From Candidatus Omnitrophota bacterium (GTDB lineage: Bacteria; Omnitrophota; Gorgyraeia; Tantalellales; Tantalellaceae): a stretch of DNA of 64,000 nt. Within the stretch, counting starts at the first letter, position 1. The number at the start of each line of letters is the position of its first letter. The position numbers and the translations under genes are program-made. Location: assembly GCA_014728075.1 (NCBI GenBank), contig WJMG01000075.1, positions 4,262-68,261 on the forward strand. Reading direction: 5' to 3'. The notes under the pieces were generated by a model that was not told where the DNA came from, did not search any database, and saw nothing but the letters and a program-made list of their open reading frames with translations. Shown one piece after another: positions 3,915-10,994 of this stretch.

Positions 3915-4397
3915 TCACAACCCTGTTTCTCTCTGCATATCCACTATATTGTGGCCCCGGTAAACGATCTCCCCCTCGCTGTTAACCGCTATTACCGCGG
4001 GGATACCCCTCACGCGGTAAGCGGAAGCGACCCTGCCGTCGAGATCAAGCGCCATCGGATACTTTATCCCCGTCCTCTCCACGAACGAAGCCACTTTAGC
4101 GGGGCTTTCCTGTATATTCACACCGATGATCCCGACGCTGTCGCCTTTATCGGTGTAATAATCGTTTACTTCCGGGATCTCCCTCACGCAGTAAGGGCAC
4201 CAGCTGGCTCCGAAGACCAGTACCGCGGCTTCTTTTGTCTTCAGGACTTCCGAAAGGGATATTTCGTTCCCGGCGAGGTCCTTAAGAGTGAAGTCAGGCG
4301 CTTTTCCGGCTCCACCCAGCCCCTGTGTATCCGCGGGAGTGCACGCGCTTAGAACGCAGACCGATAATACGGCTATGGTAAAAAGTTTAAGTTTCAT
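3915..4397 (-). CDS. TlpA/ResA-like thiol-disulfide oxidoreductase lipoprotein
   Basis: Lipoprotein signal peptide (LSVCVLSAC) and WCPYC thioredoxin active site. Confidence 0.8.
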   Translation of the reverse strand: MKLKLFTIAVLSVCVLSACTPADTQGLGGAGKAPDFTLKDLAGNEISLSEVLKTKEAAVLVFGASWCPYCVREIPEVNDYYTDKGDSVGIIGVNIQESPAKVASFVERTGIKYPMALDLDGRVASAYRVRGIPAVIAVNSEGEIVYRGHNIVDMQRETGL

Positions 4398-4476
4398 ATA
4401 TCTCCTCCTTTAGGATAAATAAGCCCGTTCCCGGCACTCAAACCCGGACCGGGCCTTAACCCGCCTTGATATCTCA

Positions 4477-5175
4477 TCATAAACTCAGCATTCCGGCTTT
4501 GTAAATATAATATTCCCCGAGTAAAATCAATAACAGGGCGAAAATTTTCTGTACCGCTTTCATCGCTTTCTCCGACCTGGGAAGGGAAGAAACTATCCCC
4601 GCGAAAGTTCCGATAACTATCAGAACAACGCCGAACCCGAGAGCGAAAGTAAAAAGCAGCGAGACCCCCAGAACCGGATTCTGGGTGGTTGCCACAAAAG
4701 CGAGCAAAGCCCCCAGCACCGCCGCGGCGCAGGGAGAGGCCACGAACCCGGAGGCGACACCCATAAAGAACACCGAAAGAGGGTGCCCGCTCTTTCCGGG
4801 CTTTCCGGCCCCCGCTCTTGCCAGCAGCAAAGTGGGAAGCGGGATCACATCAACAAGCGCCAGCGCAAAAAATATCATCACATTACCGACGACCAAATAT
4901 ACCAGGGGGTTGGTCTGGAACTGACCGAAAAGCTTTCCGGTCAAGGCCGCGGCGGCGCCCAGCGCGGAAAATGTGACCGCCATGCCCATGACATAGCTTA
5001 CCGAAAGGATAAAGTTCCTGGCCCTTGAGGAATCCCTGCCGGTACCTATCACGCCTACTATAATGGGTATCAACGGATAGACACATGGAGTGAAAGATGT
5101 GGCGAGGCCGCCGAGAAACACGGCTATGAAAGTGACCGGAGAAGGATTGTTCAGGTAATACGAAATATCCTGCAT
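4477..5175 (-). CDS. ccdA: cytochrome c-type biogenesis protein CcdA (DsbD transmembrane domain)
   Basis: Two conserved Cys in TM helices (FTPCVYPLIP, SPCAAAVL). Start set at MQDISYY (ATG 5175) with a GGAAAGGTGA Shine-Dalgarno sequence. Confidence 0.85.
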   Translation of the reverse strand: MQDISYYLNNPSPVTFIAVFLGGLATSFTPCVYPLIPIIVGVIGTGRDSSRARNFILSVSYVMGMAVTFSALGAAAALTGKLFGQFQTNPLVYLVVGNVMIFFALALVDVIPLPTLLLARAGAGKPGKSGHPLSVFFMGVASGFVASPCAAAVLGALLAFVATTQNPVLGVSLLFTFALGFGVVLIVIGTFAGIVSSLPRSEKAMKAVQKIFALLLILLGEYYIYKAGMLSL

Positions 5176-5231
5176 AAAATCACCTTTCCAAGAAAACACT
5201 CAGGGTTCAGGTACAGGTTCGGTTCCTCATT

Positions 5232-5867
5232 TCACTTGAATATCGTTCCGGTCTGTGCCGACCAGAAAAGTATATCGAGTTCATCCATGGGGATATCTAT
5301 ACTCCTGGAAAAACCCTCCAGTTTTTTTTCCAATTCAAAATAGCATTTCCTCGATATGCATACCGGTCTTTCGTCCACCAGCCCGTAACGGAGCATGTTC
5401 TTTATTATATGGACATCGAGTATAGCCAGGTCACGGCCGAAACCGATATTCCTCAGAAAATGACTGGCTTCCTTGTATCCGATACCCTTGATGTTCCTGA
5501 CAAGCCAGTCCCTGGTAGCCTTTATGTCCTTTTCGTCTATTCTCTCCTTTATGCGTATGTTCCCTTCCCTGGTCAAGCGCTCCCGGGTCTCGAAGATATA
5601 ACCGGCCTTATTGTTGGGGAACCTTACGGCTTTAAGCCCCTCCCGTATATCTTCCCTGCTTCCGGAAAAAAGCGCCCCGCTTTCAGCGAGCCCGGAAACT
5701 GCCCGGTCGCAGTATACCGCTTTGGACTGCGGTGTGCAGATACAGAAACAAAGCTCGGCGAATATATCCCGTTCGTCACCCTGCCACACTCTTTTGAAAT
5801 CTCTGAGCCTTTCCTTTATGGCTTCTTTCTTTTGCGCGTACTGTTCAAGTAGTTCTTTCATCATCAC
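5232..5867 (-). CDS. Ogg2-type 8-oxoguanine DNA glycosylase/AP lyase (HhH-GPD)
   Basis: About 210 aa, helix-hairpin-helix with catalytic Lys (IKGIGYKEASHFLRNIG) followed by Asp. Size and pattern match archaeal/Thermotoga-type Ogg. Confidence 0.6.
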   Translation of the reverse strand: MMMKELLEQYAQKKEAIKERLRDFKRVWQGDERDIFAELCFCICTPQSKAVYCDRAVSGLAESGALFSGSREDIREGLKAVRFPNNKAGYIFETRERLTREGNIRIKERIDEKDIKATRDWLVRNIKGIGYKEASHFLRNIGFGRDLAILDVHIIKNMLRYGLVDERPVCISRKCYFELEKKLEGFSRSIDIPMDELDILFWSAQTGTIFK

Positions 5868-6048
5868 ACATCTTCATGAGCTCGCGGGCGAGCTTCATGT
5901 GACCTTTTTCCTCTTCTGCTATCGAGTAAAGGACCTTTCTTATTTCCGGGTCCTCGACCTGTTCGGCGTAATGCCCGTAGAAGGCCTTCGCCCTCTCCTC
6001 GTGAACGAATATCTCCCTGAAATCCGCGTGCAGCATGTCAATATTCAT
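5845..6048 (-). CDS. ferritin-like (rubrerythrin-family) half-domain protein, C-terminal half
   Basis: 67 aa; resembles the C-terminal two helices of the neighbouring rubrerythrin-like protein (FY...V.DP..R..L.SIAEEEKGH.KLAREL, E-x-x-H metal-ligand motif). The ATG overlaps the stop of the upstream 80-aa ORF. Confidence 0.45.
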   Translation of the reverse strand: MNIDMLHADFREIFVHEERAKAFYGHYAEQVEDPEIRKVLYSIAEEEKGHMKLARELMKMCDDERTT

Positions 6049-6280
6049 TTCTGGGGTCCTTTTCTATATTCTTAATAAGGCCTTCAACTGTCTCCTTATG
6101 CCTGGAGGAATCGTTATAGAGCCGCGTAAGGATCTTCTTCATCTTTTGAGCTTTTTCGGCGGGAACGCCTTCGGCGTGATCCAGTATCCCCTTGGAAAAA
6201 TTCGCCAGTGTCGTGACCATTCCCTCCTCCACATAAACTACCTCGTTAAGACCGGCAAGAAGCCTTTCCCTGGATATCAT
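6038..6280 (-). CDS. ferritin-like half-domain protein, N-terminal half (translationally coupled to trxB)
   Basis: 80 aa from ATG 6280, which overlaps the trxB stop (ATGA). Two predicted helices with acidic residues; together with the 67-aa ORF it is about 147 aa, the size of one ferritin-like domain. Confidence 0.4.
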   Translation of the reverse strand: MISRERLLAGLNEVVYVEEGMVTTLANFSKGILDHAEGVPAEKAQKMKKILTRLYNDSSRHKETVEGLIKNIEKDPRNEY

Positions 6281-7197
6281 GCCCACCCCCTGTTCCTCGC
6301 CAGATAGCTGAAAGCCCCTAAAGCTGCCTTGGCTCCCTCTCCGGCGGCTATTATTATCTGTTTTTCCGGAATATCCGTGACATCTCCGGCCGCGTATATG
6401 CCTTCAACGCTCGTCTCGTTCCGAAAGTTCACTTTTATCTCTCCAGAACCGTTCTTTTCAACGGCGCTTTCGAACTCCGAATTAGGGATAAGGCCTACCT
6501 CGACGAAAACACCTTCTACGGCTAAATCCCGCCTGCCCGCGGGAGTCTGGACGCTTACCCCGCCGACCAGGCCATTACCGGATATCTCCAGTATCGTGCT
6601 GGAGTTCATAACGGTCACCTTATCCGAAGACATCACCTTTTCCCTTATTACCGCGTCACCGCCCGGTTCTTCGGTGTTATTTACAAGATAGACATGGTCC
6701 GCTATCCTTATAAGCTGGAGCGCGGCTTCCAGAGCGGAATTCCCGCCTCCGGCGACAACGACCTTTTTCCCCGCGAAAAGGGGAGCGTCGCAGGTCGCGC
6801 AATAAGTCACTCCCCTGTTACGGAACTCCTTTTCCCCCGGAACGCCCATTTCCCTGGACCTCTTGCCGGAAGCGATAATGACCGTCCTTGCCGCGTAATA
6901 CGCTTCCTCCGTCCCCACCTTCACTACGCCGCCGTCCTTGAGTATGGAAACGGCCTTTTCCCCTTCTCTCATCTCCACGGCGTATTTTTTCATGTGTTCT
7001 TCGAATTTCGCCGCAAGCTCGTTGCCGGTTATGAACTGGTATCCTGCATAGTTCTCTATTTCCCCGCTCCAGGCGGCCTGTCCGCCTATATCAAGAGATA
7101 CTACCAGAAGGTCCATCTTTTTCCTGGCGGCGTATATCGCCGCCGTAATTCCCGCCGGACCGGCGCCTATTATGATAAGGTCGTAAATTTTATCCAT
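6277..7197 (-). CDS. trxB: thioredoxin-disulfide reductase
   Basis: 306 aa, FAD motif IIGAGPAG, redox-active CATCD motif, NADPH-binding GGGNSA. Confidence 0.9.
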   Translation of the reverse strand: MDKIYDLIIIGAGPAGITAAIYAARKKMDLLVVSLDIGGQAAWSGEIENYAGYQFITGNELAAKFEEHMKKYAVEMREGEKAVSILKDGGVVKVGTEEAYYAARTVIIASGKRSREMGVPGEKEFRNRGVTYCATCDAPLFAGKKVVVAGGGNSALEAALQLIRIADHVYLVNNTEEPGGDAVIREKVMSSDKVTVMNSSTILEISGNGLVGGVSVQTPAGRRDLAVEGVFVEVGLIPNSEFESAVEKNGSGEIKVNFRNETSVEGIYAAGDVTDIPEKQIIIAAGEGAKAALGAFSYLARNRGWA

Positions 7198-7430
7198 GGG
7201 ATACGGCCCCGGGCCGTCAGAGGCCCCGCGCTTTCTCTATCCTGGTTTATCGAACCCTGCGATGACCTCGCCCTCAGTGTCGATAACGGGAACTCTTATC
7301 TGCCCGATATCCTGACCACCTCCTCTACGGCGGAGGGGTCATCCCCCACATCCACGGATCCGTATTGGATATTTTTTAGTCAAAATACCTCTTGAATTTC
7401 CCGCAGGACGAACAGACAGAAGTAATGTGT

Positions 7431-7922
7431 TTAACCTTCTTCACGGTCACAACCTCCCTTAAGGGAGCAAAGCCGGCTCAAATGTTCCTTTTCTTCCGAG
7501 ATCAGCCTCTCTACAAGGCCACGGTCGCTCTCCGGGACCATATTTTTCATTTCCTGGTAAAAGAGAATTGAATCTTTCTCGAACCCTATCCCCAGGGTTA
7601 TACCTTCGGCGTAATCGGATACCGACCCCGCTACTTCCGCGCCCTTGCCTTTTCTGGTAAATACATACTGGGAAGCAAGGGCGTTCATGTACGCGAAATA
7701 CTCTTCCGGGTAGGCTTCCCGGGGTTCATAATCACAGGCCCCTTTGAATATCTTTTCAAAAACGGAAATATGCTGTTCTTCAGCTTCGGCGAGTTCCTTA
7801 AAAGCTTTTCTGGCCTCGGGTTCACCGGTCTTGCCGGCGAGGGCCATATAAAACTCCTTTCCGTTCTTCTCTATCTGTATGCCGAGTTCCACTATTTCAC
7901 ACGCGGAAAAACTGTCAGCCAT
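7431..7922 (-). CDS. rubrerythrin-family ferritin-like diiron protein (no rubredoxin domain)
   Basis: 163 aa with two E-x-x-H motifs (AEAEEQH, SEEKEH) in a four-helix-bundle pattern. Confidence 0.7.
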   Translation of the reverse strand: MADSFSACEIVELGIQIEKNGKEFYMALAGKTGEPEARKAFKELAEAEEQHISVFEKIFKGACDYEPREAYPEEYFAYMNALASQYVFTRKGKGAEVAGSVSDYAEGITLGIGFEKDSILFYQEMKNMVPESDRGLVERLISEEKEHLSRLCSLKGGCDREEG

Positions 7923-8024
7923 ATCATCCTCCGGTAATAGCGTTCAGCGGCAGGCGTTAACACGGGCAAATAAAGAAAACAGCGCGGCCTCAACCCGGCG
8001 CTTAACGCCTGACGCTTGACGCCG

Positions 8025-8600
8025 TTAATAATTCTCAGCCAGAACTTCGTAATAAGACTGCGGATGTTTACACGCGGGGCAGACTTTTGGCGCTTCCTCC
8101 GATTCATGCACGAATCCGCAATTGCGGCAATGCCATTTCACGGGCCGGTCCTTTTTGAAGACCTTCTCCTCTTTGACATTTGCCAGAAGGGCCCTGTACC
8201 GGGCTTCGTGTTCCTTCTCCACCTTGGCTATTTCCCTGTAAGTCTCGGCTATCTCGGGGAACCCCTCTTCTTCGGCGTCCTTGGCGAAATTCTGATAAAG
8301 AACGGTCCATTCCTCTTTCTCGCCGTCCGCGGCGGCTTCCAGATTAGCGGCGGTATCCCCGATCACACCTGCCGGATATCCCGCTGTTATCTCCGCCATC
8401 CCGCCTTCAAGGAATTTGAAGAACCTTTTAGCGTGTTCTTTTTCGTTCTCCGCCGTTTCCGCGAATACAGCGGCTATCTGCTCGTAACCGCCCTTTTTTG
8501 CCACGCTGGCGAAATAAGTGTACCTGTTCCTGGCCTGGGATTCCCCGGCGAAAGAAGCCAACAGGTTCTTTTCCGTTTTCGTTCCTTTTACGCTTGCCAT
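8025..8600 (-). CDS. rbr: rubrerythrin
   Basis: 191 aa; N-terminal diiron ferritin-like domain ([10 protein letters not shown]) plus C-terminal rubredoxin-like CxxC...CxxC (CRNCGF...CPACKHP). Confidence 0.95.
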
Positions 8601-8791
8601 TTTTCCTCCTTTAATGAGACCACAACTTATGAAACGATAGTGAACATAAGTTGTGCTGTCGAATTAAACCCTTCACCCTTCCCGCATGTACCCGCAGGCT
8701 TTTAAAAGGCGCGGGGCCGCTCTATAACACGGGCCTCCTTTGTTTAGGACCGGAAGCCTGTCACCCGGAACCGGATACCCGGCACCTGGCG

Positions 8792-9217
8792 CTATACGCT
8801 GTTTTTCCACAACATATGGACCGTACAGAACTCCCTTACCTCCGCGATATCGTCTTTAGAGACGCAGCAGAAATGAGCTTCGGGCTTGTCGCCGGGCTTG
8901 AGCTCTTTTCTCAGGACACTGTCCTTTGTAAGTACTTCGATACACTTGATGTAATGTTCGTCGGTCATCGGGTGTTCGGTACTTCCTACCTTGACCTTGA
9001 TACAGACATTGTCCTCCCCGCAGGAATCGCAGGTACAGGTCGCGCTGCCTTCGTCTTCGACAACGGGGACATGCTTTTCCTGACCTTCATCCTCGGTCTT
9101 TGCTTCGAGTTTTTTCATCGGCTGGTCACAGCAGACAAGCGCCGGCTGGCCCTCGTTCACTATCTCAACCACATTTCCGCATACTTCACACCTGTAAAGT
9201 TCTCTTAATTGTGTCAT
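8792..9217 (-). CDS. dfx: desulfoferrodoxin (2Fe superoxide reductase)
   Basis: N-terminal desulforedoxin CEVCGN...CC, then the KHVP neelaredoxin centre-II motif and C-terminal His/Cys ligands. Confidence 0.95.
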   Translation of the reverse strand: MTQLRELYRCEVCGNVVEIVNEGQPALVCCDQPMKKLEAKTEDEGQEKHVPVVEDEGSATCTCDSCGEDNVCIKVKVGSTEHPMTDEHYIKCIEVLTKDSVLRKELKPGDKPEAHFCCVSKDDIAEVREFCTVHMLWKNSV

Positions 9218-9289
9218 TACGCGCCTCCTTATACTCTGGCGTTCAGCGTAAAGAGTACAGAGTATAGTCTGAATACTACACGCTGCACG

Positions 9290-10465
9290 CTATACTCTTT
9301 CGGTCAATTCTCCCTTCACCTTCTCCTTTATCTCATCAAGCCGTTCCTTGCGGGGAACATACTGGACCTTTAAACTCTCCATCATTTCGAACCCGCAGGA
9401 AGAAAGCACCTCGTTTATTCCGGGTATACTCTGGCCGCCCCATCCGTATGAACCGAATGCCATGGCTTTTCTGTTCCTGGGAGAAAGGCCTTTAAGATAT
9501 GTCAAGAAAGACCCCACCGTCGGCAGCATGCCGTTATTGAGGGTGGGTGAACCCACGCATATGTACCTGGAATCAAGAACATGGGTCATTATATCCGAAA
9601 TATGGCATGTCCTGAGGTTCTCTATCCTGGATACAATGCCTTTTTCCTCAAAAGCCTCCTGGAGGGAGTAAGCTATCTTTCCGGTAGAACCCCACATCGT
9701 GTCGTAGACAATGACCGCTTTATCGACGGATTCGTTAGCGGACCACTTGCCGTAAAGCTCCAGTATCTTATCGATGTTCCTGCGCCATATGAGACCGTGG
9801 CTCGGAGCTATCATGTCCACATCCAGGCCGGCGACCGCCTCAAGGGCTCTTTGGACCTGGTTTCCGTAAGGCAGTACTATGTTCGCGTAATATTTCGCGG
9901 CCTCGGACCTCACGATATCCCATCCTATCTCGTCGTCGAACCTTTCCTCCGAAGCTATATGCTGGCCGAAAGCGTCGTTAGGTATCAGAAGCCTGTCCCG
10001 GGGAACATAAGTGGCCATTGAATCGGGCCAGTGCACCATTTGTGTCAGAACAAAACTCAGGTCCCTTTTCCCTATATTTAGAGAATCCCCCGTGTTCACG
10101 ACCTTTATATCCCATCCGGAGGTATCGTAATGGAATTTCAGGCCTTTTTCCCCGTTAGGGGATGTGACAACGGTAGCCTCCGGGCAGATTTCCATTATCC
10201 GGGGCAGGGAACCCGAATGGTCCATTTCCACATGGTTACAGACCACATAATCGATCTTCGATGGGTCCGCTATTTTTTTGATCCTCTCGAGCATTTCATC
10301 GAAAAGGTAGTACTTGACGGTGTCTACGAGGACCAGTTTCTCATCCTTTATGAGATAGGAATTATAAGTGGATCCTCTCTGGGTAAGGTAGCCGTGGAAA
10401 TTCCTGAGGTCCCAGTCGATCCCCCCTACCCAGAAAATATCCTTTTTTATTTCAAGAGCTTTCAT
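9290..10465 (-). CDS. fprA: flavodiiron protein (FprA / rubredoxin:oxygen oxidoreductase family)
   Basis: 391 aa; metallo-beta-lactamase-like diiron domain (HVEMDHSG) followed by a flavodoxin-like domain. Confidence 0.9.
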   Translation of the reverse strand: MKALEIKKDIFWVGGIDWDLRNFHGYLTQRGSTYNSYLIKDEKLVLVDTVKYYLFDEMLERIKKIADPSKIDYVVCNHVEMDHSGSLPRIMEICPEATVVTSPNGEKGLKFHYDTSGWDIKVVNTGDSLNIGKRDLSFVLTQMVHWPDSMATYVPRDRLLIPNDAFGQHIASEERFDDEIGWDIVRSEAAKYYANIVLPYGNQVQRALEAVAGLDVDMIAPSHGLIWRRNIDKILELYGKWSANESVDKAVIVYDTMWGSTGKIAYSLQEAFEEKGIVSRIENLRTCHISDIMTHVLDSRYICVGSPTLNNGMLPTVGSFLTYLKGLSPRNRKAMAFGSYGWGGQSIPGINEVLSSCGFEMMESLKVQYVPRKERLDEIKEKVKGELTERV

Positions 10466-10484
10466 GGGTCCTTCTCCCTGACGC

Positions 10485-10994
10485 TCATTCCGCAGCAGGC
10501 GGACTGTACACTCTTTGAGACAGTTCCTTATCCAGCATCAGCAGGCCGTTCCCGTCTTTCCCGACGAGCTTGAACTTCTGGATAAGTTCGGTGGCGTTGG
10601 CCTCCTCTTCTACCTGCTCGGTCACGAACCATTGCAGGAATATCTCCGTCGCCCTGTCCTTCTCTTCAACGGCCTGTGAGACAAGGTCGTTTATGAGGGA
10701 GGTTACCAGCTTTTCATGCTCAAGCGTTTTTTCGAAAAGGTCCAGTGCCGAAGAAAAATCCTGAGGAGGTTCTTCTATGGCCTCAAGCAGGACCCTCCCT
10801 CCCCGCTGGGTAACATACCCGTACATCTTCTGGGCGTGGGAAAGCTCTTCCTGCACCTGCACATTGAACCAGTTGGCCACACCGTTAAGGCCCAGTTCCG
10901 TGGCGAAAGACGACATCCCCATATATAGGTACGCCGAATAAATTTCCCTGTTTATCTGATGATTGATACTTTTGACCATTTTATCGCTTATCAT
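10485..10994 (-). CDS. ftn: non-heme ferritin
   Basis: 169 aa ferritin-like domain (NHQINREIYSAYLY...QEELSHAQK). Confidence 0.9.
   Translation of the reverse strand: MISDKMVKSINHQINREIYSAYLYMGMSSFATELGLNGVANWFNVQVQEELSHAQKMYGYVTQRGGRVLLEAIEEPPQDFSSALDLFEKTLEHEKLVTSLINDLVSQAVEEKDRATEIFLQWFVTEQVEEEANATELIQKFKLVGKDGNGLLMLDKELSQRVYSPPAAE

What the first reader, a model, noticed from the sequence alone, without database searches (positions are those of the whole stretch)
5845..6280. Split ferritin-like (rubrerythrin-family) domain encoded as two overlapping small ORFs translationally coupled to trxB
The trxB stop overlaps an ATG (ATGA) that opens an 80-aa ORF. Its stop in turn overlaps, over 11 nt in another frame, the ATG of a 67-aa ORF. 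The 67-aa product aligns with the C-terminal two helices of the adjacent 163-aa rubrerythrin-like protein, including the EEEKGH metal-ligand helix. The 80-aa product resembles the N-terminal two helices. Together they are about 147 aa, one four-helix diiron domain. This is either a naturally split heterodimeric half-ferritin pair, which would be an unusual architecture, or a frameshifted gene: a pseudogene, a sequencing error, or a programmed -1 shift.
Basis: partly seen in the sequence, partly recalled or inferred. Interest (0 to 1): 0.55.

Follow-up and report, generated by a model that had tools for sequence, protein, structure and literature searches.

The report
Paired half-ferritin genes, conserved overlap
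Two tiny overlapping genes after the thioredoxin reductase gene are not a broken gene but a widely conserved pair of related two-helix, ferritin-like proteins that probably join to build one iron-binding four-helix bundle from two different chains.

Summary
On the minus strand, trxB (6277-7197) ends in an ATGA overlap with an 80-aa ORF (A, 6038-6280). A overlaps a 67-aa ORF (B, 5845-6048) by 11 nt, and B overlaps ogg.

The frameshift, pseudogene and sequencing-error reading is refuted:
- A and B are separate ORFs of fixed size (78-80 aa and 62-67 aa) in all 19 independent loci examined.
- All 19 have the same 11-nt junction (ATG-5 nt-stop). Four of them are relatives only 25-30% identical, in unrelated gene contexts.
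- An exhaustive profile search of 1.84 billion representative proteins found 138 A-family members and no A-B fusion.

B is a two-helix EncFtn/erythrin-like half-ferritin with E17, Y24 and E47-x-x-H50. A has no Pfam family. It is a diverged paralogue of B (hhalign E 5.7e-7) with a longer loop and a variant ligand motif, E18...[D/E][S/T]xxH61.

B resembles the N-terminal half of the neighbouring 163-aa rubrerythrin-like protein best, not the C-terminal half. So this is an old two-gene module, not a recent split.

New variant of a known kind; moderate interest.

The parts
6277..7197 (-). Low-molecular-weight thioredoxin-reductase-like flavoprotein (306 aa, CATC redox motif). Its stop overlaps the start of ORF A.
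   Evidence: Pfam Pyr_redox_2 3.4e-43. NCBIfam TRX_reduct 1e-82 and AhpF C-terminal part 1.2e-91, both below their equivalog cutoffs. The same gene lies upstream of A in 13 of the 14 other Omnitrophota loci examined; the exception is L021.
6277..6280 (-). ATGA stop/start overlap between trxB and ORF A.
   Evidence: Sequence. Also present in L001 and L007. L004, L016 and L022 have a 4-9 nt gap instead.
6038..6280 (-). ORF A, 80 aa (NCBI MBD3380038.1, annotated hypothetical protein). Predicted helical hairpin (helices 4-33 and 41-74). A diverged half-ferritin paralogue of B with candidate ligands E18, D57 and H61. The position of the canonical bridging Glu is Ser58.
   Evidence: 52 homologue clusters, almost all exactly 80 aa. 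138 representatives of 78-80 aa in an exhaustive search. H61 invariant and E18 conserved in at least 90% of 128 diverse members. hhalign against the B family: probability 92%, E 5.7e-7. 26 of 128 members hit Pfam Rubrerythrin below threshold, on profile positions 1-61. AlphaFold2 pLDDT 94.
6057..6061 (-). Shine-Dalgarno-like AAGGA inside the 3' end of ORF A, 8 nt upstream of ORF B's ATG.
   Evidence: Purine-rich GGAG/AAGGA-type motifs occur 6-15 nt upstream of B's ATG in most of the 18 loci inspected. A consensus match only; function is inferred.
6038..6048 (-). 11-nt overlap ATGAATATTGA: the start codon of B embedded in the last codons (N-E-Y-stop) of A.
   Evidence: The same geometry (ATG 8 nt before A's stop codon) is found in 19 of 19 distinct loci. 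Of 131 A-family C-termini, 109 have D/N at position -3, 117 have a residue with a G-initial codon (E, V, A, D, G) at position -2, and 111 have Y/F at position -1. If the D/N codon ends in AT, as it does in all 19 loci, the first two features spell xATG.
5845..6048 (-). ORF B, 67 aa (NCBI MBD3380037.1, annotated hypothetical protein). A two-helix EncFtn/erythrin-like half-ferritin with ligand set E17, Y24, E47 and H50. It is 5 residues longer at the C-terminus than the usual 62 aa.
   Evidence: Pfam Rubrerythrin 28.3 bits, above the cutoff of 22.8, on profile positions 8-59. NCBIfam EncB_fam 5.9e-8. 95 homologue clusters, nearly all 62 aa. E17, Y24 and E47 invariant and H50 conserved in at least 90% of 87 sequences. 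AlphaFold2 pLDDT 96.5. Top Foldseek PDB hits are EncFtn, EncB, sulerythrin and rubrerythrin, TM 0.8-0.9.
5232..5867 (-). 8-oxoguanine DNA glycosylase (archaeal-type Ogg, 211 aa). Its start overlaps the end of ORF B.
   Evidence: Pfam Ogg-HhH 2.4e-56 and NCBIfam N-glycosylase/DNA lyase 1.2e-62, above cutoff. It follows B in most Omnitrophota loci, usually through an ATGA overlap.

Best explanation
ORF A (80 aa) and ORF B (67 aa; 62 aa in most relatives) are two real, separately initiated genes joined by translational coupling. They form a conserved two-gene module.

Both encode helix-loop-helix halves of a ferritin-like (rubrerythrin/EncFtn-type) four-helix bundle, and they are paralogues of each other. 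B keeps the canonical half-site (Glu17, Tyr24, Glu47-x-x-His50), with the same spacing as the E32/Y39/E62/H65 site of encapsulated ferritin. A keeps Glu18 and His61 but has a 9-10 residue longer loop. It also has a family-wide [D/E]-[S/T]-x-x-H motif, so the second carboxylate sits one residue earlier and the canonical bridging position is Ser or Thr.

The most likely mechanism is inferred. The 11-nt overlap and an internal Shine-Dalgarno-like element give roughly equal amounts of A and B. One A hairpin and one B hairpin pack antiparallel into a heterodimeric four-helix bundle. At the interface lies an asymmetric dimetal (probably diiron) site made of E18, D57 and H61 from A and E17, E47 and H50 from B.

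In this Omnitrophota genome the pair sits inside a large O2/ROS-defence cluster: ferritin, flavodiiron protein, desulfoferrodoxin, rubrerythrin, rubrerythrin-like protein, thioredoxin reductase and Ogg. It therefore most likely acts as a minimal erythrin-type peroxide/oxygen-reducing or Fe(II)-oxidising protein.

Shown here: gene structure, conservation, homology, hairpin fold and ligand conservation. Inferred: heterodimer, metal binding and activity.
For: Conservation of the two-gene layout:
- A is 78-80 aa in 52 close clusters and in 138 representatives at 50% identity or less.
- B is 62-67 aa in 95 clusters.
- A is followed by B with the identical 11-nt overlap in 19 of 19 distinct loci. 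These include 25-30%-identical relatives in unrelated contexts (rhodanese, hexokinase, MetF/histidine kinase). Two further A relatives also have an overlapping small ORF downstream: one next to a glycosyltransferase (contig ends 24 codons into it) and one next to MFS and VIT1 genes (no DNA held, gene caller reports 20 nt of overlap).
- A's C-terminal [D/N]-[G-initial-codon residue]-[Y/F] pattern is consistent with B's ATG being embedded across the family.
- No fused form was found in the exhaustive search.

A and B are paralogues:
- hhalign probability 92%, E 5.7e-7. It aligns E18 with E17, S58 with E47 and H61 with H50.

A is ferritin-like:
- 26 of 128 members hit PF02915, against 7 or fewer for any other family. 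The matches cover profile positions 1-61 and reach up to 20.8 bits.
- H61 is invariant and E18 is conserved in at least 90% of members.

B is ferritin-like:
- PF02915 above threshold and EncB_fam 5.9e-8.
- PDB sequence hits include a Mn catalase, the designed diiron hairpin dimer DF1 (1MFT) and EncC.
- Top Foldseek hits are EncFtn 5N5E, EncB 7S5C and sulerythrin, TM 0.8-0.9.

Fold and precedent:
- Both are confident hairpins, pLDDT 94 and 96.5.
- In EncFtn the diiron site forms between two hairpins, and the E62A mutation abolishes activity (PMC11202242). An A homodimer would lack that residue.

Context:
- The ROS-defence gene cluster.
Against: - No direct evidence of A-B contact.
- A's fold matches are non-specific: any long helical hairpin scores as well.
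- B could homodimerise on its own, as EncFtn does, with A playing some other role.
- A lacks the canonical ExxH glutamate, so it may not bind metal at all.
- Contexts outside Omnitrophota are not related to oxidative stress, so the physiological role is uncertain.
- All Pfam hits for A are below the gathering threshold.
Confidence: 0.6

Rival explanations
1. A single four-helix ferritin-like gene was broken by a frameshift. It is a pseudogene, a sequencing or assembly error, or a gene read through by programmed frameshifting into one product of about 145 aa.
For: - The two ORFs overlap in different frames and together have the size of one ferritin-like domain.
- The same MAG carries a truly frameshifted glutaredoxin-like gene 900 bp upstream, so errors or decay do occur in this record.
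Against: - The same two-ORF structure and 11-nt junction occur in 19 of 19 independent loci from different assemblies, down to 25-30% identity.
- Protein lengths are fixed across 138 A representatives and 95 B clusters, and no fused homologue exists.
- B is in the +1 frame, not -1.
- No conserved slippery sequence is present.
- In L015, L019 and L020 a stop codon directly precedes B's ATG in B's frame. That leaves only 8 nt for any shift.
- A conserved ATG and an upstream purine-rich element fit independent initiation.
Confidence: 0.02
2. B alone is the functional unit: an EncFtn-like homodimer or ring with a symmetric diiron site. A is a non-catalytic paralogue that regulates, caps or chaperones B, or A forms its own homodimer with a different function.
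For: - B has the complete canonical half-site and resembles homo-oligomeric EncFtn and EncB most closely.
- A has Ser or Thr at the bridging-Glu position. In EncFtn, mutating that Glu abolishes activity.
Against: - A keeps an invariant His, a Glu conserved in at least 90% of members, and a family-wide acidic residue at His-4 across about 130 diverse members. This argues for retained metal ligation rather than a purely structural role.
- Strict co-occurrence, fixed order and overlap coupling are typical of stoichiometric partners.
Confidence: 0.25
3. The pair arose by recent fission or duplication of the adjacent 163-aa rubrerythrin-like gene. A would be its N-terminal half and B its C-terminal half.
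For: - The gene order A then B would match N-half then C-half.
- B shares 35% identity with part of the neighbour, and its EEEKGH helix resembles the neighbour's SEEKEH helix.
Against: - B's best match is to the neighbour's N-terminal half (E 3e-6), not the C-terminal half (E 0.049).
- A matches B far better (E 5.7e-7) than it matches the neighbour family (E 0.01; BLASTP E 0.15).
- Both A and B match the first helix pair of the Rubrerythrin profile.
- The pair occurs in distant lineages with no rubrerythrin-like gene in the short flanks available.
Confidence: 0.05
4. The pair is an unrelated small helical-hairpin heterodimer with no metal chemistry, for example WXG100/Esx-like or a toxin-antitoxin-like pair.
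For: - A's structural neighbours include designed heterodimeric hairpins and EsxA/EsxB-type proteins.
- Esx heterodimers have a ferritin-like bundle topology (PMC3843698).
Against: - Neither loop contains a WXG motif, and no type VII secretion genes lie nearby.
- B passes the Pfam Rubrerythrin threshold and has all the ligands.
- A's only recurrent Pfam signal is Rubrerythrin.
Confidence: 0.05

Closest known systems
Encapsulated ferritin (EncFtn; R. rubrum Rru_A0973, M. xanthus EncB/EncC, P. furiosus; Pfam PF22277, TIGR04535)
   Same: - B is a two-helix subunit whose diiron site would have to form between two hairpins.
- The ligand pattern and spacing are the same: E-x6-Y ... E-x2-H, with 30 residues between the two Glu.
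- These are B's best structural matches, TM 0.8-0.9 and 28-30% identity.
- Weak family-model hits.
   Different: - EncFtn is a homo-oligomer (dimers forming decameric rings). It carries a C-terminal encapsulin-targeting peptide and is encoded next to an encapsulin shell gene.
- Here B ends right after helix 2, and no shell gene is seen within about 4 kb in related loci.
- B is always paired with a diverged paralogue, A.
- Scores are below the family cutoffs: 16.2 against 27, and 25.1 against 125.
Rubrerythrin / erythrin / sulerythrin (Pfam PF02915)
   Same: - The same superfamily and the same diiron-carboxylate motif.
- B passes the PF02915 threshold, and A members hit it just below threshold.
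- The same ROS-defence gene context.
- From my own knowledge: sulerythrin and some rubrerythrins are domain-swapped, so each diiron bundle is built from helix pairs of two chains.
   Different: These are single chains of four helices, often with a rubredoxin domain. Here each chain has only two helices, and the two chains are different gene products.
Due Ferri (DF1, DFtet) de novo designed diiron helix-loop-helix proteins
   Same: - A helix-loop-helix of about 50-60 residues that dimerises into a four-helix bundle with an E / ExxH dimetal site.
- The B profile hits DF1 (1MFT) and the related entry 5C39 by sequence, E 0.012.
   Different: DF1 is synthetic and homodimeric. The natural pair has two different chains and an asymmetric ligand set.
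Hetero-oligomeric bacterioferritins and H/L ferritins
   Same: Paralogous ferritin-like subunits, one with a complete catalytic site and one with a degenerate site, co-assemble (papers listed; not read in detail).
   Different: Those subunits are each complete four-helix bundles that assemble into 24-mer cages. The heterology lies between bundles, not within a single bundle.
WXG100 (EsxA/EsxB) heterodimers
   Same: Adjacent small genes each encode a helical hairpin. The two hairpins form a heterodimeric four-helix bundle with ferritin-like topology (PMC3843698).
   Different: There is no sequence relationship, no WXG motif, no secretion system, and no metal-ligand motifs in Esx proteins.

Membership tests
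Ferritin-like superfamily, Rubrerythrin family (PF02915) | Score at or above Pfam's gathering threshold. | tested here: met
   ORF B scores 28.3 bits against a cutoff of 22.8. ORF A of the window has no hit. 26 of 128 A-family members hit below threshold, best E 1.8e-4; the highest score among ten members scanned individually is 20.8 bits. Membership by score therefore holds for B only.
Ferritin-like superfamily, Rubrerythrin family (PF02915) | Four-helix bundle within one polypeptide. | tested here: not met
   AlphaFold2 gives two helices for each protein. Both match only profile positions 1-61 of 137.
Ferritin-like superfamily, Rubrerythrin family (PF02915) | Diiron ligand motif: E on one helix and ExxH on the next. 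| tested here: met
   B: E17 and E47 invariant, H50 conserved in at least 90%. A has a variant, E18 ... [D/E][S/T]xxH61, so the canonical motif is not met for A.
Encapsulated ferritin (PF22277 / TIGR04535 / EncB_fam) | Two-helix subunit with the E/Y/E/H ferroxidase half-site. | tested here: met
   B has helices 3-30 and 34-66. Foldseek TM to EncFtn and EncB is 0.8-0.9. E17, Y24, E47 and H50 have the same spacing as E32, Y39, E62 and H65.
Encapsulated ferritin (PF22277 / TIGR04535 / EncB_fam) | Family model score above cutoff. | tested here: not met
   PF22277 16.2 bits against 27. TIGR04535 25.1 against 125. EncB_fam 32.7 against 90.
Encapsulated ferritin (PF22277 / TIGR04535 / EncB_fam) | C-terminal encapsulin-targeting peptide and an adjacent encapsulin shell gene. 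| tested here: not met
   B relatives end at residue 62, directly after helix 2. No shell-family (Linocin_M18) gene appears among the called genes within about 4 kb in L001-L009. The full 64-kb window was not scanned for a shell gene.
Encapsulated ferritin (PF22277 / TIGR04535 / EncB_fam) | Homo-oligomeric (decameric ring) assembly. | not testable with these tools
This needs native mass spectrometry or a structure.
Programmed +1 frameshift genes (prfB type) | A conserved slippery codon at an in-frame stop, with the downstream frame open upstream of the shift site. | tested here: not met
   The junction is GAA TAY TGA/TAA, with no way for the tRNA to re-pair in the +1 frame. B's frame is closed 0-13 codons upstream of its ATG, and 0 codons upstream in three loci.
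WXG100 / Esx hairpin heterodimers | W-x-G motif in the inter-helix loop and a type VII secretion context. | tested here: not met
   The loops are HAEGVPAEK in A and VEDPE in B. The neighbours are redox and DNA-repair genes.

The most novel reading that the evidence does not exclude
The A/B module is a natural obligate heterodimer of two paralogous helix-loop-helix proteins. Together they build a single asymmetric dimetal site (E / D-x3-H from A, E / E-x2-H from B).

It would then be a living example of the 'duplicated but never fused' stage long postulated between a homodimeric two-helix ancestor and the single-chain four-helix diiron-carboxylate proteins (rubrerythrin, ferritin, RNR R2). It would also be a natural counterpart of the designed heteromeric Due Ferri proteins.
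Probability: 0.4. Interest if true: 0.7.

Novelty: new variant of a known kind. Interest (0 to 1): 0.55.

Why it matters
Two-helix ferritin-like proteins are known as homo-oligomers (encapsulated ferritins). The origin of the four-helix diiron fold from a duplicated hairpin is a standing hypothesis.

A widespread, strictly conserved pair of different hairpin genes would give three things:
- a natural heterodimeric version of this fold;
- a directly testable model for how asymmetry in dimetal sites evolves before gene fusion;
- a very small (about 17 kDa in total) scaffold for metalloprotein engineering.

Practically, the result also shows that:
- the A family (about 80 aa, not in Pfam, annotated 'hypothetical') belongs to the ferritin-like superfamily;
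- the 11-nt overlap should not be 'repaired' as a frameshift by annotation pipelines.

Tried and rejected
1. AlphaFold2 of A and B joined by a (GGGGS)5 linker, with 29 paired sequences (alignment A6). The heterodimer could therefore not be modelled.
3. Profile search of A against PDB sequences. Nothing below E 0.05.
4. hhalign of the narrow Omnitrophota-only A alignment against B was weak (probability 19%, E 1.3e-3). It became convincing only with the diverse A alignment.
5. The first genome-contig scan with the 50-sequence alignment failed because no stretch was conserved enough. It was repeated with 5 sequences and gave 13 loci.
6. The metagenome-contig scan for the distant subgroup returned only one locus.
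7. Literature searches for a described heterodimeric half-ferritin or split rubrerythrin found none. They covered only open-access PMC and bioRxiv.
8. P0002 (132 aa) was examined as a possible fusion. It is an A-like N-terminus with an unrelated hydrophobic tail on a 624-bp contig, not an A-B fusion.
9. P0170 (466 aa, 7 matched stretches) is an unrelated repeat protein.
10. Coevolution analysis was considered and dropped because only about 33 pairs were available.
Full report
**1. What is in the sequence**

All relevant genes are on the minus strand.

- A 306-aa thioredoxin-reductase-like flavoprotein lies at 6277-7197. It matches Pyr_redox_2 at 3.4e-43 and carries a CATC motif. Its TGA shares the tetranucleotide ATGA with the start of an 80-aa ORF, here called A (6038-6280).
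- Eight nucleotides before A's stop codon lies the ATG of a 67-aa ORF, here called B (5845-6048). The two overlap by 11 nt, ATGAATATTGA.
- B's 3' end overlaps the start of an 8-oxoguanine DNA glycosylase gene at 5232-5867 (Ogg-HhH, 2.4e-56).
- B is in the +1 frame relative to A, so a -1 shift could not join them.
- NCBI already annotates both ORFs as separate hypothetical proteins, MBD3380038.1 and MBD3380037.1, in a Candidatus Omnitrophica MAG.

**2. Broken gene or two genes?**

They are two genes.

- A has 52 homologue clusters at 48-78% identity, and 49 of them are exactly 80 aa.
- B, searched with a 4-sequence profile, has 95 clusters, nearly all of 62 aa.
- In 14 further distinct Omnitrophota loci taken from independent assemblies, A is always followed by B with the same 11-nt overlap (ATG-5 nt-TGA or TAA). 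B is usually followed by ogg through an ATGA overlap.
- An exhaustive HMM search of 1.84 billion representative proteins with the A profile found 138 members. Apart from fragments and one unrelated repeat protein, all are 71-89 aa, mostly 78-80. None is a fusion of about 145 aa.
- Relatives only 25-30% identical were also examined, in unrelated neighbourhoods: rhodanese, hexokinase, and MetF with a histidine kinase. They too carry a 62-64-aa B partner whose ATG lies 8 nt before A's stop. Two further relatives also have an overlapping small ORF downstream. One lies next to a glycosyltransferase, and its contig ends 24 codons into that ORF. The other lies next to MFS and VIT1 genes; no DNA is held for it, and the gene caller gives 20 nt of overlap.
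- Across 131 A-family proteins the C-terminus reads [D/N]-[E/V/A/D/G]-[Y/F]. Position -3 is D or N in 109 of 131, and position -2 is a residue with a G-initial codon in 117 of 131. If the D/N codon ends in AT, as it does in all 19 loci, this spells xAT-Gxx and contains B's ATG.
- In B's frame a stop codon lies 0-13 codons upstream of the ATG, and directly before it in three loci. No slippery motif is present.
- A purine-rich Shine-Dalgarno-like element usually precedes B's ATG.

Frameshift error, pseudogene and programmed frameshifting are therefore excluded for practical purposes.

**3. What the two proteins are**

*B.*
- It passes Pfam's Rubrerythrin threshold (28.3 against 22.8 bits), matching the first helix pair of the profile (positions 8-59). 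It gives weaker hits to EncFtn-like, DUF2383 and NCBIfam EncB_fam (5.9e-8).
- Across 87 sequences E17, Y24 and E47 are invariant and H50 is conserved in at least 90%. The spacing is the same as in the E32/Y39/E62/H65 ferroxidase site of encapsulated ferritin (PMC11202242).
- AlphaFold2 predicts a confident hairpin, pLDDT 96.5, with helices 3-30 and 34-66.
- Its best PDB neighbours are EncFtn (5N5E, 5DA5), M. xanthus EncB and EncC, sulerythrin and rubrerythrin, with TM 0.8-0.9 and 25-30% identity.
- By sequence the B profile also hits a Mn catalase and the designed diiron hairpin dimer DF1.

*A.*
- The window copy has no Pfam or NCBIfam hit.
- A diverse 128-sequence alignment shows H61 invariant and E18 conserved in at least 90%. 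It also shows a family-wide [D/E]-[S/T]-x-x-H motif.
- Profile-profile comparison with the B family gives probability 92% and E 5.7e-7 over 64 columns. It aligns E18 with E17, H61 with H50 and S58 with E47, and places a 9-10-residue insertion in the loop.
- Independently, 26 of 128 A members hit PF02915 just below threshold, over their whole length, on profile positions 1-61. No other family is hit by more than 7 members.
- AlphaFold2 gives a confident hairpin, pLDDT 94, with helices 4-33 and 41-74.
- Fold searches with A are uninformative, because any long hairpin matches.

A is therefore a diverged paralogue of B. It is a half-ferritin in which the second carboxylate has moved from His-3 to His-4.

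**4. Relation to the neighbouring 163-aa rubrerythrin-like gene**

- B aligns best with that protein's N-terminal helix pair: BLASTP 35% identity and E 3e-6, and hhalign E 1.2e-4. The match to the C-terminal EEKEH helix is weak, E 0.049.
- A shows no significant similarity to it: BLASTP E 0.15 and hhalign E 0.01.
- The pair is therefore not a recently split copy of the neighbour, with A as the N-half and B as the C-half. It is an old, autonomous two-gene module.

**5. How it most likely works (inferred)**

- Tight overlap coupling, strict co-occurrence and fixed gene order are typical of stoichiometric partners.
- In EncFtn and in the designed DF1, two hairpins pack to create the dimetal site at their interface.
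- An A homodimer would lack the canonical bridging glutamate. In EncFtn, loss of that residue abolishes ferroxidase activity.
- An A:B heterodimer would offer E18, D57 and H61 together with E17, E47 and H50. That is a complete but asymmetric six-ligand site.
- In this genome the module is embedded in an O2/ROS-defence cluster. Its members are ferritin, a flavodiiron protein, desulfoferrodoxin, rubrerythrin, a rubrerythrin-like protein, a decayed glutaredoxin-like gene, TrxR, A, B, Ogg, CcdA/DsbD and a TlpA-like redoxin.
- A minimal erythrin-type peroxide/oxygen reductase or Fe(II) oxidase is therefore the best guess.
- One distant pair lies next to a VIT1 iron-transporter-like gene, which is reminiscent of erythrin-VIT1 fusions (MbfA; B hits that model at 7.7e-7).
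- The main rival is that B homo-oligomerises and A is an accessory subunit.

**6. Comparison with what is known, and novelty**

- The fold and the ligand chemistry are those of the ferritin-like superfamily.
- The closest known relatives of B are encapsulated ferritins. The module, however, fails three of their defining features: no targeting peptide, no encapsulin gene nearby, and scores below the family cutoffs.
- I found no description of a conserved heteromeric pair of half-ferritin genes in the searchable literature.
- Arbing et al. (PMC3843698) noted that Esx hairpin heterodimers share ferritin topology and speculated about fusion or fission. Here the hairpins actually carry the ferritin ligands.
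- I rate the finding a new variant of a known kind, with moderate interest. The gene-level facts are solid. The heterodimer and the metal site still need experiment.

Noticed in passing
window 7198-7430 (-): The 233-bp 'intergenic' gap between the rubrerythrin-like gene and trxB holds a glutaredoxin-like gene broken into three frame pieces: '...TSVCSSCGKFKRYFD*', 'IQYGSVDVGDDPSAVEEVVRISGR*' and 'IRVPVIDTEGEVIAGFDKPG*'. An intact 77-80-aa Grx-like gene sits at this position in L001, L004, L007, L016 and L022. There are at least two frameshifts, one of them at an A6 run. It is either a true pseudogene or an assembly error.
   Followed up: partly
window 5845-5867 (-): B in the window is 67 aa instead of the usual 62. 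The canonical B-stop/ogg-start junction (GTATCATGA) is lost. B runs on for 5 more codons (…MCDDERTT) and overlaps the ogg start (GTG/ATG/ATG at 5867-5859) by 17-23 nt.
   Followed up: partly
window 3915-10994 (-): One long same-strand O2/ROS-defence cluster: ferritin (10485-10994), flavodiiron FprA-like protein (9290-10465), desulfoferrodoxin-like protein (8792-9217), rubrerythrin with a rubredoxin domain (8025-8600), 163-aa rubrerythrin-like protein (7431-7922), TrxR, A, B, Ogg, CcdA/DsbD (4477-5199) and a TlpA-like redoxin (3915-4397). The order is partly rearranged compared with related loci. The ferritin and flavodiiron assignments were read from the ORF translations, not from a family search.
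   Followed up: partly
L023 150-160; metagenomic contig: In a distant pair (L023) the gene upstream of A also overlaps A by 11 nt. In another distant locus a VIT1-like (iron transporter) gene follows the A/B pair. This hints at an iron-handling role outside Omnitrophota.
   Followed up: no
P0002 (132 aa, 624-bp ENA contig): An A-like N-terminus (78% identical over about 70 residues) continues into an unrelated tail with a hydrophobic segment, instead of ending in NEY with B following. It may be a frameshifted or chimeric short contig.
   Followed up: no
L021 4423-4911: In one Omnitrophota locus the gene directly upstream of A is a 162-aa rubredoxin-plus-desulfoferrodoxin-like protein, not trxB. 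The conserved core is therefore A-B-ogg, not trxB-A-B.
   Followed up: partly
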